Positions 32,518-35,540 of a DNA stretch of 35,540 nt are shown piece after piece. Within the stretch, counting starts at the first letter, position 1. Each line of letters begins with the position of its first letter. The DNA comes from a virus (lineage: Duplodnaviria; Caudoviricetes), in the IMG/VR virus record IMGVR_UViG_3300031716_000030, positions 1 to 35,540 of that record; one strand, given 5' to 3'. Position numbers and translations under genes: made by a program. The notes under the pieces are model-generated. The model was not told where the DNA came from. It saw only the letters and a list, made by a program, of their open reading frames with translations, and did no database searches.

Positions 32518-32584
32518 AACCGAGCCAGGGGATTGAACCCTGCTGCCTGACGCGATGCCAAGTCGTCTACCCTCAACGCTCGGT
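32518..32584 (-). ncRNA. tRNA-like element 2 (acceptor stem and T arm; degenerate D and anticodon arms)
   Basis: ACCGAGC/GCTCGGT 7-bp stem stacked on CAGGG-TTCAATC-CCCTG. Confidence 0.6.
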
Positions 32585-32685
32585 GAAAAACAAAGCCGCT
32601 TCATTCCCAGCGGAGTACCCCTGTTCACGCCTCTGGACTTTGGGGCCGCTTTTTACACGGCCCAGACATGAACTCCATCCCCCAG

Positions 32686-32785
32686 TCGGGTGGGCTGGAT
32701 TCGAACCAGCGCGGATTGGTTTCGGTGCCCCTATCTCCAATCACCACGTTAACATGGTGCGGTCGACCACTACGCACATCACCCG
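32686..32785 (-). tRNA. Atypical tRNA-like element 1 (Leu-TAA-like, long variable arm, non-canonical anticodon loop)
   Basis: CGGGTGA/CCACCCG acceptor (6/7), D arm TGCG-TAGTGGTCGAC-CGCA, CCAT-GTTAAC-GTGG, GATTGG..CCAATC, GCTGG-TTCGAAT-CCAGC, discriminator A, no CCA. Confidence 0.6.
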
Positions 32786-32789
32786 AAGT

Positions 32790-33262
32790 TCGGGGTATCG
32801 TCGCCCCCCGAGTGCCTAGCCGGTTTTTCATCGGCGGCCTTTATTAGCTCCCGCCTAGGGACGCCACTTGTTTACGAGCTAGGCATCTGCTCGGCCTGAC
32901 ATGCACAGGCTTCTTGAAAGTGTCCGACGTTGACTCGGAAAGCCTAGGTGACGAAGATTTCCACCAATTGTCCGCCAGCCTTCTATGGCGTACCGCCTTA
33001 CCCTTGCGGTCTCACTTCCACCTGCTTACTCTCTACAGGACGGCATAGCACACCGTAGCCTTTTCCGATTGTTACCGCTTACGTCGGTAGGTCCGCGTCA
33101 TCAGCTTGGACCATGCTGAAACAATGTCGCCGGTCAACGCGTCCAGTGATGGTACTGGCACCCGCGCTCTATTCATCCGGAGCGAACCCGTTTAACATCC
33201 TCCTTGCGCTTGTGCTAACTTCACCCCAAACCCGCCTCGTGTGAAGCGGGAATGGGCTGGGG
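32790..33262 (-). ncRNA. Large structured non-coding RNA candidate
   Basis: No credible ORF; more than 12 short hairpins, multi-branch closing stems and loop complementarities. Confidence 0.65.
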
Positions 33263-33448
33263 TTAGATTCTGCCGCGAAGTTCAAGAAGAACGGTCAGCT
33301 TCGCATTGGCAATCTTGAGCATGCCCATTAGCTTTTCCACGCGAGCGAAATCACCCCGTCCAGCAGACTCAGCAATTTCGAACTCATGAGAACGTCCGGA
33401 ATTCTGTTCGCGTTCGATCATTTCGTCAACAATCTTCTCCATTCCCAT
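33263..33448 (-). CDS. Small early hypothetical protein
   Basis: 61-aa helical ORF. Confidence 0.55.
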   Translation of the reverse strand: MGMEKIVDEMIEREQNSGRSHEFEIAESAGRGDFARVEKLMGMLKIANAKLTVLLELRGRI

Positions 33449-33593: not shown

Positions 33594-33601
33594 CTTCCTC
33601 T

Positions 33602-33659
33602 CCTCCCTCCGCTTTCTCTCACCCTGGGACTTGGGACCGCAGGCGTTGGCGCGTTGAGG
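33602..33659 (-). ncRNA. Twister ribozyme, type P1 (copy 2)
   Basis: CCT-C^AA-CGC-GC-CAACG-CCTGCGG-TCCCAAGT-CCCAGG-GTGAGAGAAA-GCG-G-A-GGG-AGG: P1, P2, P4, T1 CCC/GGG, T2 GC/GU and catalytic A/G present. Confidence 0.75.
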
Positions 33660-33683
33660 CCCGGCGCTTGGCCGGGATGGTTG

Positions 33684-33904: not shown

Positions 33905-33963
33905 ACTGTACATCAGACTCTTTTGTTTTGCAAGTAGATTGTTGCTATGTTTGCGAAAATAGT
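33905..33963 (-). promoter_or_regulatory. Early sigma70-type promoter P2
   Basis: TTGCAA (33933-33928), 17 bp, TACAGT (33910-33905); duplicate of P1. Confidence 0.8.
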
Positions 33964-34227: not shown

Positions 34228-34280
34228 CCTCCACTCCCCATTGCTCGCGGACTTGTGACCGCCGTTGGTTGGGTTAGAGG
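34228..34280 (-). ncRNA. Twister ribozyme, type P1 (copy 1)
   Basis: CCTC-T^AA-CCCA-AC-CAACG-GCGG-TCACAAGT-CCGC-GAGCAA-TGGG-G-A-GTG-GAGG: all helices and both pseudoknots (CAC/GTG, AC/GT) fully paired. Confidence 0.9.
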
Positions 34281-34306: not shown

Positions 34307-34639
34307 TCAGTCAGCCACGCGACGAATCTCGGCCGGCGTGTACTCAACCTGGAAGGCCTGCCGATACTTGCCGGGAGGCACGGCGATGGTCGCGTGCTCC
34401 TCATGCACAAGTTCCGCAGTCTTCTTGGCCCAGATGCTCTGGGCCCCTCCTGTCGCACCGTCAAGGAACAGCTTCACGCCGAAACCTTCCTCAAAGCGAT
34501 GATGATGACCGGTGACTTCGCCCAGGGCGAGGACCACCTTCTTGTCGGGCTGTTCCTTGCCCGTGATTTCGTCAGTGGGGACGAGTAAGACGTCTCCCTG
34601 GCGTACGATCTGCTGCTCCATGAGCAACCTCCTTTTCAC
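34307..34639 (-). CDS. Conserved His-rich partner of DUF6745-like proteins
   Basis: RQGDVLL, LALGEVTGHHH, LVHEEHATI..PPGKY..QVEYTP..RRVAD. Confidence 0.75.
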   Translation of the reverse strand: MKRRLLMEQQIVRQGDVLLVPTDEITGKEQPDKKVVLALGEVTGHHHRFEEGFGVKLFLDGATGGAQSIWAKKTAELVHEEHATIAVPPGKYRQAFQVEYTPAEIRRVAD

Positions 34640-35540
34640 GTTTCTACCGCCGGGAGGTATTCCCGGTAGTCTTTGAACTCAAGCGAACCGTCAGCCTTTC
34701 GCCACGTAGACGCCATGGCTGCGTGAACATCGCGTGATGCCATGCCGTTGTAGGCACTGGGATCGATGCGGATATGATAGAGCTTCGTGGTGCCATCAGG
34801 CTCTGGCGTCGAGTTACGGCACTCGATCATCACGATAGGTTCATCTTCCGGAATCTCGCGATATAGTAGACGGGAGCCGCGCAATCCCTTGACCTTGTGA
34901 CGCGAATTGCCACGGTGGACAACCTTGGCTCCAGCGCCGACCAGATATGCGGCGAGGCCACCTGGGAACCGTTCCAGCATAACACGACGCACCTCGGCGT
35001 TGCGTTCGGCGTCAACGGCTTGGACGGTGATCTGTTCGGGATTCATGATGACGAACTCGGGGACTCGCACGCCATGGACGGCATAGATGCTCCAGCCATC
35101 AGGATACCGTACAGCCGGACCCGTGACTGAATGAAGGCGATGGAGTTCGTCCTGGTTGACGATCTCATGACGTTCGGAAATCCAGCAGACCTTCTCATGA
35201 GGAATGGCCCACCCCGCCGAATTGGCAAGAGCTGTCAGACCCGACAACTTCTCGGTCTCTGCCGATAATCCCGTCACCTCACGGAAGAACTCGTAGAATG
35301 CCAACCAGTTGGCGTCGTGTTGCCCATACATGGAGTCCCACACGGAGGCCCCCGCGGAGTCCCCCACGGAGGCCCCCACGGAGTCCCCCACGGAGGCCCC
35401 CACGGAGTCCCACACGGAGTCCCGCACGGAGGCCCGCACGGAGTCCCGCACGGAGGCCCCCACGGAGTCCCACACGGAGTCCCGCACGGAGGCCCGCACG
35501 GAGTCCCGCACGGAGTCCCCCACGGAGGCCCGCACGGAGT
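34636..35540 (-). CDS. C-terminal part of DUF6745-like repeat protein
   Basis: [60 protein letters not shown]. Confidence 0.85.
35333..35540 (-). repeat. 12-bp tandem repeat SV[RWG][DA]
   Basis: About 17 units; last 36 nt match positions 3-38. Confidence 0.95.

What the first reader, a model, noticed from the sequence alone, without database searches (positions are those of the whole stretch)
32790..33262. Large ornate ncRNA candidate in the early region
Seen: ~470 nt without a credible ORF, packed with unique-sequence 4-6-bp hairpins, e.g. TCCGA-GTCAACG-TCGGA, GCCTG-TGCATGT-CAGGC, CGCCA-TAGAAGGC-TGGCG, ACCGC-AAGGGTAAG-GCGGT, CCTG-TAGAGAGTAAG-CAGG, TACCG-ACGTAAG-CGGTA, CCAGT-ACCATC-ACTGG. 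Closing stems form multiloops (32813-20 with 32878-85; 33068-73 with 33120-25). Loop GTCAACG has a perfect 7-nt partner 200 nt away (33133-39), loops ACCAT/ATGGT could kiss, and GTAAG recurs in three loops. Known: GOLLD and ROOL are large phage ncRNAs often next to tRNAs. Inference: a member of such a class or a new one; with the tRNA-like parts the non-coding block is ~750 nt.
Basis: partly seen in the sequence, partly recalled or inferred. Interest (0 to 1): 0.82.

Follow-up and report, generated by a model that had tools for sequence, protein, structure and literature searches.

The report
Anticodon-less tRNA-shaped RNA in phage cassette
The stretch is likely a string of small folded RNAs rather than one giant RNA; its centre is a motif predicted to be tRNA-shaped with no anticodon, kept by compensatory base changes in about 40 phage and metagenome sequences and matching no Rfam family, which would most likely act as a decoy for host proteins that handle or attack tRNA.

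Summary
The hairpins are real and lie on the minus strand (11 perfect 5-bp hairpins vs 2.8 in shuffles), but whole-region folding energy is at chance and GOLLD, ROOL and raiA models do not match. Homologs show a cassette of separable modules. The core (32915-33019) is an RNA motif not in Rfam: a 7-bp closing stem, a hairpin with loop AAGGGUAAG, a 9-136-nt variable insert and a hairpin with loop GUCAACG. Searching with the first hairpin alone, 29 of 31 metagenome hits carried the second hairpin and the closing stem (null 4 of 20,000); all seven closing pairs change on both sides. It reads as a tRNA frame without an anticodon arm (0 of 41 copies have one), usually beside tRNA or tRNA-like genes, with no shared phage protein. 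A second module (33068-33125) occurs in phages lacking the core, and a close relative lacks the whole 470 nt. The proposed kissing and long-range pairs are not supported by covariation. Most likely a host-processed tRNA mimic acting as a decoy; function and expression are untested. The scan noted anticodon-less mimics in other phages, but not this sequence family.

The parts
32915..33019 (-). Core motif: 7-bp closing stem (33019-33013 with 32922-32916) plus base 32915, AG linker, 5-bp hairpin with loop AAGGGUAAG, 52-nt insert with two hairpins, 4-5-bp hairpin with loop GUCAACG; predicted tRNA-shaped, no anticodon arm
33068..33125 (-). Module B: closing stem, hairpin whose loop (GGUCC) can pair with a GGACC 6 nt after the stem (H-type pseudoknot, predicted), then a hairpin with an RUAAG loop; 32 nt identical in two other phages
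   Evidence: a further short match in run X4
33058..33158 (-). Module X (5' part 33158-33126, 3' part 33067-33058), enclosing module B here; shared only with L002 and L134, both of which also carry the core downstream
33021..33039 (-). Hairpin with AGAGUAAG-type loop just before the core; no homolog found in the loci held
32808..32910 (-). Module D: hairpin 32910-32894 and a 13-bp closed multiloop 32894-32808; a 94-nt stretch recurs with 4 differences in another context in run X4; short similarity to the sequence after the core in L002 and L134
   Evidence: no IMG/VR homolog with the pattern
32791..32810 (-). Terminal G+C hairpin before the first tRNA-like element
33215..33266 (-). Module A: long imperfect hairpin starting at the stop codon of the 61-aa ORF; possible processing site marking the 5' edge (inferred)
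   Evidence: z -5.84, 0 of 200 shuffles
32686..32785 (-). tRNA-like element E: canonical T arm, 4-nt loop where the anticodon loop should be, long variable arm; not called by ARAGORN; kept in the X3 relative with a re-paired stem and a different loop
32518..32584 (-). tRNA-like element G: 7-bp acceptor, canonical T arm, shrunken D arm; not called by ARAGORN
32596..32613 (-). Terminator-like hairpin with U tract between E and G (consensus match only)
33263..33448 (-). 61-aa ORF directly upstream of the cassette; no PHROG match
33601..33660 (-). Twister-P1-like match upstream of the cassette (19.4 bits; below cut-off)
34228..34280 (-). Twister-P1-like match (40.1 bits, E 3.5e-9 for this genome; below the 67.2 cut-off)
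33905..33933 (-). Promoter-like site (8 of 12 consensus bases, 17-nt spacer), read by eye; candidate start of the early transcript
   Evidence: sequence; not listed by the stricter scan

Best explanation
The 470 nt are likely a cassette of separately inherited small RNA modules on the minus strand, and its core (32915-33019) is a conserved motif predicted to fold as a tRNA frame without an anticodon arm, which host tRNA-processing enzymes would release and which would most likely act as a decoy for host proteins that bind or attack tRNA. Shown: the motif, its three helices, its free-varying closing stem, its swappable insert, its place beside tRNA-like genes on the same strand, and its independence from the other modules. 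Inferred: (1) the GG of the first loop docks on the UC of the second loop as in the tRNA elbow; (2) RNase P, or transcription start, sets the 5' end at the first base of the closing stem, and 3' trimming plus CCA addition finishes it; (3) with no anticodon it cannot decode or be cut at an anticodon, so it would soak up elbow- or acceptor-reading host factors (tRNA nucleases, tRNA-modifying toxins, uncharged-tRNA sensors) early in infection.
For: Motif: 29 of 31 non-self metagenome loci found with the first hairpin alone carry the second hairpin and a fully paired 7-bp closing stem (28 distinct cores); null 4 of 20,000 random positions. In 37 aligned copies the closing stem is 99.2% paired and all 7 pairs change on both sides; G-U pairs occur, which points to RNA. 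The window's own copy has double-sided changes in both hairpins. tRNA shape: order acceptor-like, D-like, insert, T-like; closing helix 7 bp, with an 8th pair in 26 of 40 and chance-level pairing beyond; C at the T-loop 56 position and A at 58 never vary in A2; 0 of 41 copies have a canonical anticodon arm; insert 9-136 nt, often a single-stranded linker then a helix abutting the T-like arm, like a long variable arm. The commonest closing stem (GGAAGYG/CRCUUCC) and the start of the D-like arm match E. coli tRNA-Ser(UGA), and the same stem closes neighbouring elements that have a canonical T arm (L088, L116, L122, L129, L141); 5 of 41 have G3-U70. Context: canonical T-arm words within 350 nt in 23 of 40 loci on the same strand, 0 on the other; 13 of 16 motif-bearing viral records vs 8 of 22 controls hold such a word; tRNA or tRNA-like genes start within about 2-9 nt of the core's 3' end in L089, L119, L131, L135, L139. 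A sigma-70-like promoter sits 3-13 nt before the stem in 4 of 40 (control 233 of 8000), 3 of them at 6-7 nt. No shared phage protein: the widest cluster covers 5 of the 18 records and 25 short loci compared. Modularity.
Against: The T-like loop is not canonical (G where tRNA has U54; G60 in most) and the pair next to the closing stem forms in only 13 of 37, so the arm is 4 bp plus an unpaired A. Rfam's tRNA model and ARAGORN do not see the motif, and model R1 gives real tRNAs only 7-13 bits. The near-invariant stems of both hairpins are more constrained than tRNA stems are, which fits a specific ligand or a catalytic fold as well. No CCA is encoded in 0 of 41 (neighbouring true tRNA genes also lack it). 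17 of 40 loci have no canonical T-arm word within 350 nt. The insert folds only slightly better than shuffles (mean z -0.9; 10 of 39 below -1.5). Nothing here tests processing, charging, binding or the decoy role; the shuffle control ignores relatedness.
Confidence: 0.45

Rival explanations
1. The core is a tRNA-shaped processing and stabilising frame only: RNase P and 3' nucleases cut at it to mature the early transcript, and the variable insert or the neighbouring RNAs are the working parts (as t-elements do in plant mitochondria).
For: Closing stem varies freely while its length is kept; inserts of 9-136 nt with unrelated sequence; tight spacing to the next tRNA; the window's early region also holds two twister-like matches and a long hairpin at the cassette's edge; t-elements as RNase P/Z signals (PMC1920247, abstract).
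Against: Copies with a 9-10-nt insert carry no cargo (L092, L120); a processing signal does not need two invariant non-canonical loops, and canonical T-arm elements sit next to it; copies that start at a promoter need no 5' cut.
Confidence: 0.2
2. In this phage the modules fold together as one large RNA (X + B + core + D), with the CGUUGAC segment of X pairing to the GUCAACG arm.
For: X upstream of the core, and similar short words downstream, are shared in the same order by the window, L002 and L134; all three X-bearing loci carry the core; the X segment is complementary to the T-like arm over 7 nt, or 9-10 with one bulge (sequence); best flank duplex beats 40 of 40 shuffles in L002 and 37 of 40 in the window.
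Against: 37 of 40 loci carry the core without X; no compensatory change, and the window's A at the loop-closing position is not matched in X; the L134 duplex is at chance (21 of 40 shuffles as good); spacing X-to-core runs from 3 to about 150 nt; B travels without X or core; whole-region folding at chance.
Confidence: 0.13
3. The core is a cis-acting element of the nascent early transcript, such as an RNA-polymerase-binding antiterminator (like phage HK022 put RNA, recalled) or a 5' stabiliser.
For: Starts at a predicted transcription start in some loci (4 of 40); one copy per record in all 18 records with a match; invariant stems and no phage partner suggest a conserved host target; a terminator-like hairpin lies 300 nt downstream in the window.
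Against: In most loci it lies inside or at the end of RNA arrays, not at the transcript start; it is patchy, in 1 of 80 loci around homologs of the neighbouring recombinase-like gene, and absent at this place in a close relative.
Confidence: 0.1
4. The core is a new small self-cleaving or RNA-processing ribozyme that cuts the cassette apart.
For: An invariant core with a free closing stem and an optional insert is how small ribozymes look (established knowledge); ribozymes cluster near each other in bacteria and phages (PMC10085705, passages) and two twister-like matches lie 0.6 and 1.2 kb upstream.
Against: No twister-P1 match in the other 40 records searched, 16 of them motif-bearing; no ribozyme family matches the motif; the helix lengths, order and closing-stem sequence follow tRNA.
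Confidence: 0.1

Closest known systems
Phage T4 stable RNAs rnaC and rnaD (species 1 and 2)
   Same: Small structured RNAs inside a phage tRNA cluster, function unknown (annotation; PMC9697503 passage); rnaC ends in a T-arm-like hairpin.
   Different: No sequence or model match (R1 gives rnaC 7 bits, rnaD nothing); rnaC has a canonical T loop; the T4 RNAs are late, this cassette lies among predicted early genes.
Class II tRNAs (Ser, Leu, Sec) and the allo-tRNAs / irregular tRNA polycistrons of Mukai et al. 2017 (PMC5389517)
   Same: Acceptor-like stem identical to E. coli tRNA-Ser(UGA) in the commonest form; long D-like stem and a helix before the T-like arm; occurrence in polycistrons of irregular tRNAs, some charged but not used in translation.
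   Different: No anticodon arm; non-canonical GUCAACG loop; 7(8)+4 bp with an unpaired A between; base after the stem A 26, U 12, C 2 of 40, never G, whereas most allo-tRNAs have G73 or U73 and an anticodon.
Bacterial and phage Y RNAs (YrlA; PMC4201824)
   Same: tRNA mimic with D-like and T-like hairpins, some cut by RNase P and given CCA.
   Different: YrlA has the T and D arms in permuted order around a looped acceptor stem and lies next to Ro60; here the order is that of tRNA, no TROVE gene in 17 of 17 records and no Rfam match.
GOLLD (RF02032), ROOL (RF03087) and raiA (RF03072)
   Same: Non-coding, structured, in phage tRNA neighbourhoods (GOLLD, ROOL); short loop words such as ACGUAAG, AGUAAG and GUCAAC also occur in ROOL or raiA.
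   Different: No model match at E 10; those are single RNAs of 200-800 nt with covariation throughout, whereas these modules are inherited separately.
tmRNA tRNA-like domain and plant mitochondrial t-elements
   Same: Acceptor stem plus T arm without anticodon; G3-U70 in 5 of 41 copies; neighbouring elements score weakly as tmRNA; t-elements act as RNase P/Z signals.
   Different: The core has a full D-like stem, which tmRNA lacks (recalled), a non-canonical T-like loop and no tag reading frame; it is not hit by the tmRNA models.

Membership tests
GOLLD (RF02032) | Match to the covariance model of the conserved 3' region | tested here: not met
   0 matches at E<=10. No GOLLD-positive control was run.
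GOLLD (RF02032) | Location near phage tRNA genes | tested here: met
   tRNA-like elements E and G follow; homologs beside tRNAs
ROOL (RF03087) | Match to the covariance model | tested here: not met
   0 matches; the same route finds ROOL on pMP118 at 130 bits
ROOL / GOLLD-type large ornate RNA | One RNA of 500 nt or more conserved as a unit | tested here: not met
   Core alone in 37 of 40 loci; B without core; block absent at this place in the X3 relative
ROOL / GOLLD-type large ornate RNA | Kissing loops supported by covariation | tested here: inconclusive
   ACCAU/AUGGU not conserved; GUCAACG partner kept in 3 loci without compensatory change
ROOL / GOLLD-type large ornate RNA | Homo-multimeric cage | not testable with these tools
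   Needs mass photometry or cryo-EM
raiA motif (RF03072) | Match to the covariance model | tested here: not met
   0 matches; no positive control was found in the two Clostridia samples searched (41 and 151 genomes), so sensitivity of this route is unproven; short shared words only
Canonical tRNA (RF00005) | 7-bp acceptor stem | tested here: met
   99.2% paired, all pairs covary
Canonical tRNA (RF00005) | Anticodon arm: 5 bp, 7-nt loop with U33 and purine 37 | tested here: not met
   0 of 41 copies; insert as short as 9 nt
Canonical tRNA (RF00005) | 5-bp T stem with UUCRA loop | tested here: not met
   4 bp plus unpaired A (fifth pair in 13 of 37); loop GUCAACG, with YCRA kept but G at 54
Canonical tRNA (RF00005) | D-loop GG contacting T-loop UC (elbow) | not testable with these tools
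   The residues are present and invariant in A2, but the first hairpin was the search pattern and no 3D test is on hand
Canonical tRNA (RF00005) | RNase P processing, CCA addition, aminoacylation | not testable with these tools
   CCA not encoded; needs biochemistry
YrlA Y RNA | Ro60 (TROVE) gene adjacent | tested here: not met
   0 of 17 records, control rings in 2 genomes; 12 of the 17 are under 90% complete
YrlA Y RNA | T arm, looped acceptor stem, D arm in permuted order | tested here: not met
   Order here is open stem, D-like, insert, T-like; YrlA layout
Known small self-cleaving ribozymes | Match to a ribozyme model | tested here: not met
   No match over the core or module B; module B holds CUGAUGA but no conserved GAAA block
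Known small self-cleaving ribozymes | Site-specific self-cleavage | not testable with these tools
   Needs in vitro transcription

The most novel reading that the evidence does not exclude
A 61-nt RNA chassis, shared by unrelated phages and needing no phage protein, imitates the tRNA elbow with two non-canonical invariant loops, accepts any 9-136-nt insert in place of the anticodon arm, and is an RNA-only counter-defence that sponges tRNA-targeting immune nucleases or stress sensors; in a few phages an upstream module pairs with its GUCAACG arm as an on/off switch.
Probability: 0.2. Interest if true: 0.85.

Novelty: new variant of a known kind. Interest (0 to 1): 0.62.

Why it matters
Phage tRNA clusters hold stable RNAs whose job has been unknown for decades (T4 rnaC and rnaD are still 'of unknown function'), and many anti-phage systems cut tRNA in the anticodon loop. 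This family is small (minimal natural copies of 61-62 nt), sharply defined by covariation and found in unrelated phages with no shared protein, so it makes the question 'what do anticodon-less phage tRNA mimics do' testable in a few in vitro and laboratory-strain assays. Its invariant non-canonical loops may also show a new way to build a tRNA-like elbow, or a new small RNA fold if the tRNA reading fails. It also warns that hairpin-dense 'ornate' blocks in phages can be cassettes of small modules.

Tried and rejected
Rfam scans of the window at gathering and E-value thresholds and of 42 related loci: no family over the core, B, D or X. blastn of the 821-nt block and of two minimal copies against cultured phages and plasmids gave only 18-35-nt chance or T-arm matches. 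Sequencing runs: no RNA holder listed; no evidence either way on expression. A 151-nt contig of run X2 identical to 32837-32987 was seen but not used: it cannot show context. Loci around homologs of the neighbouring recombinase-like protein: 1 of 80 has the core. A relaxed two-loop pattern gave 18 loci: 6 already held, 1 new, 11 chance. Module X pattern: 13 loci, 1 true (same contig as L002), 12 chance. Open-loop pattern for module B: 5 loci, 2 already held, 3 chance, so pseudoknot covariation could not be tested. Module D pattern: 9 loci, all chance. nhmmer of the other segments against the loci gave nothing but T-arm matches (one search printed nothing and is not counted). Hammerhead readings of B and of D were considered and dropped (no conserved GAAA block; no valid cleavage triplet; sequence). 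A retron reading was dropped (no reverse transcriptase among the window's PHROG matches; 9-nt inserts). A DNA-level element is disfavoured (G-U pairs; strand bias). raiA likeness rests on short words only; no raiA locus could be fetched for a fair comparison. The terminase search gave no host clue. Literature searches did not show this motif; one search looked for four motif words in full texts and found 0 papers.

Full report
Setting. The window is a whole 35,540-base virus record, estimated 93% complete. Its genes run on the minus strand: terminase, portal and virion genes at lower coordinates, replication and methylase genes in the middle, small unknown ORFs at the high end. The finding lies between a 61-aa ORF (33448-33263) and, after two tRNA-like elements, a 288-aa gene of unknown family (32277-31411; I call it recombinase-like from its position and look, not from a call). 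The host is unknown.

Observation. Perfect 5-bp hairpins number 11 against 2.8+/-1.6 in 1000 shuffles. Two results go against reading much into that alone: other phage loci reach 12-18 hairpins per window (23 of 80), and the folding energy of the region is at chance (z -0.56). No Rfam family matches, nor GOLLD, ROOL or raiA when searched singly; the ROOL route works on a known plasmid copy.

Finding homologs. Among 80 loci around homologs of the 288-aa gene, one, L002, shared the hairpin at 33010-32992. That 17-mer found 20 IMG/VR loci: 11 carry a complete module, 4 a diverged one (L087, L094, L095, L096; model scores 34-44 bits for the three scored) and 5 are chance. The same hairpin then found 32 metagenome loci and 2 genome loci. 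Leaving out L133, the window's own contig, 29 of 31 metagenome loci carry, 43-169 nt downstream, a 4-bp hairpin with loop GYCAACK followed by one base and a strand that pairs 7 of 7 with the bases before the first hairpin; the same test passes at 4 of 20,000 random positions. The two misses are a diverged copy (L123) and one whose closing stem is out of register (L126). The genome hits are a full copy in a 6-kb contig of a Clostridia MAG and a diverged one in a Gammaproteobacteria MAG.

The core motif. Alignment A2 holds 37 distinct copies. Left out were exact duplicates, L125 (near-duplicate), L126, L134 (188 nt), L142, the second copy in L136 and the diverged copies. The closing stem is 99.2% paired and all 7 pairs change on both sides; 56 cells show double changes against 9.6 in shuffles, and slid controls pair only 29-47%. 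That control ignores relatedness, but the records share few proteins and the closing stem was not in the pattern that found all but one of them. The first hairpin was the pattern, so its invariance is built in; the second hairpin was not, and is nearly invariant. The window's copy changes one pair of each hairpin on both sides. Each of the 18 records with a match has one copy; L136 has two.

Why tRNA-shaped. The order is open 7-bp stem, two linker bases, a hairpin with GG in its loop, an insert, a hairpin with a 7-nt loop carrying YCRA at the positions of tRNA 55-58, then the stem. The stem has an eighth pair in 26 of 40 loci and chance pairing beyond. Its commonest sequence, and the start of the first hairpin, equal those of E. 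coli tRNA-Ser(UGA); the same stem closes neighbouring elements that have ordinary T arms but odd middles. None of 41 copies has an anticodon arm; inserts run from 9 to 136 nt, often a short single strand and then a helix against the second hairpin. T-arm words lie within 350 nt in 23 of 40 loci, always on the same strand. A promoter consensus directly precedes the stem in 4 of 40 loci against 2.9% of random sites, 3 of them at the spacing that would start transcription at the first stem base (weak, and noticed before it was counted). Against the reading: G at loop position 54, a 4-bp arm with an unpaired A, no hit by tRNA finders, and only 7-13 bits for real tRNAs under model R1, with T4 tRNA-Ser scoring best. 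The elbow contact rests on established tRNA knowledge and is not tested.

One RNA or a cassette. Module B (33125-33068) has 32 identical bases in two other phages whose records give no convincing core match (one 16.6-bit hit elsewhere in G195). A 48.9-kb contig of run X3, about 89% alike over the 288-aa gene, keeps 32518-32787 and joins straight to 34306 with 55 other letters between, so it lacks the 470 nt there. In that relative the arm of element E at the anticodon position is re-paired and its loop changes from 4 to 5 nt (my reading of the tables), so E is also a non-decoding mimic. Run X4 has pieces of B and D flanked by other sequence. But 37 of 40 loci lack X, there is no compensatory change, and the best flank duplex is unusual in L002 and the window but not in L134 (7 of 41 copies have 2 or fewer of 40 shuffles as good).

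Mechanism. No phage protein travels with the motif (widest cluster 5 among 18 records and 25 short loci; no Ro60 in 17 records), so its partner is probably a host factor (inference). I commit to this: the cassette is transcribed early, host tRNA enzymes release the tRNA-shaped units (a 7-bp acceptor stem is a major RNase P determinant, PMC4201824), and the core, which cannot decode, serves as a decoy for tRNA-binding defence or stress proteins; anticodon-cutting defences are common (PMC13434031). I give this 0.45; a pure processing frame 0.2; one large RNA 0.13; a cis antiterminator 0.1; a ribozyme 0.1. That the core is a real conserved structured RNA motif I put above 0.95.

Novelty. The family is not in Rfam 15 and eight paper searches did not show it. 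It could be among the 8,495 IMG/VR candidates of Fremin et al. 2023 (PMC10690425): three of its supplementary files were searched without a hit, three were not searched, and the large zip and PDF files, where alignments may lie, could not be read. The kind, tRNA-like RNAs of unknown function in phage tRNA clusters, is known (T4 rnaC and rnaD; irregular tRNA polycistrons; YrlA). The scan has no look-alike of this sequence and no notes on this genome but has noted other anticodon-less mimics in phage cassettes; I did not test those notes and they are not support.

Papers seen: PMC5389517, parts 1-3 of 5 of the text; PMC10690425, passages and three supplementary files; PMC10085705, passages; bioRxiv 10.1101/2024.12.08.627333, passages (its supplements are closed); PMC10861870, passages and supplement hits; PMC13434031, passages; PMC9697503, passages; PMC1920247, abstract; PMC4201824, passages. 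Recalled, from no call: tRNA elbow contacts and numbering, the lack of a D stem in tmRNA, HK022 put RNA, the hammerhead and twister consensus beyond what cmscan printed.

Noticed in passing
window 34228-34280 and 33601-33660, minus strand: Two twister-P1-like elements below Rfam's cut-off (40.1 and 19.4 bits), each just before or inside the start of a small early ORF. In the first, both pseudoknot pairings appear kept by compensatory changes and P3 is missing (read from the alignment). The X3 relative keeps a piece of the second. None in 40 other records.
   Followed up: partly
L088, L116, L122, L129, L141, L143 (within 600 nt of the core): A second family of anticodon-less tRNA-like elements with a canonical T arm and the same or a similar acceptor stem as the core, 58-133 nt long; some score weakly as tmRNA.
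   Followed up: partly
L083 (after the core), L098 (before the core), L218 1410-1490: Another recurring module of about 100 nt with 'GUGUCAAU/A...GACGGG...CCUUGUAGA' words, seen by eye in three unrelated cassettes; no Rfam match.
   Followed up: no
nine of 40 core loci, e.g. L090, L115, L117, L136, L140: A recurring GGAAAGAC hairpin on the same strand as the core (9 vs 0 on the other strand); L092 has a weak abiF match.
   Followed up: no
window 32614-32680; L093, L116, L141: A hairpin with a GCGUGAA-type loop closed by CCCC/GGGG recurs next to the core in several loci and is kept in the X3 relative.
   Followed up: no
L136 603-730 and 859-944: Two tandem copies of the core with the same closing stem but different inserts; one has GUCGACG in the second loop.
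   Followed up: partly
window 34636-35540, minus strand: A 300-aa ORF running off the contig end that begins with a tandem 20-nt-like repeat array, followed by a 110-aa ORF; both match PHROGs of unknown function.
   Followed up: no
L012 633-959: A tight four-tRNA array (Thr, Ser, Pro, Ala) upstream of a homolog of the 288-aa gene, without the core.
   Followed up: no
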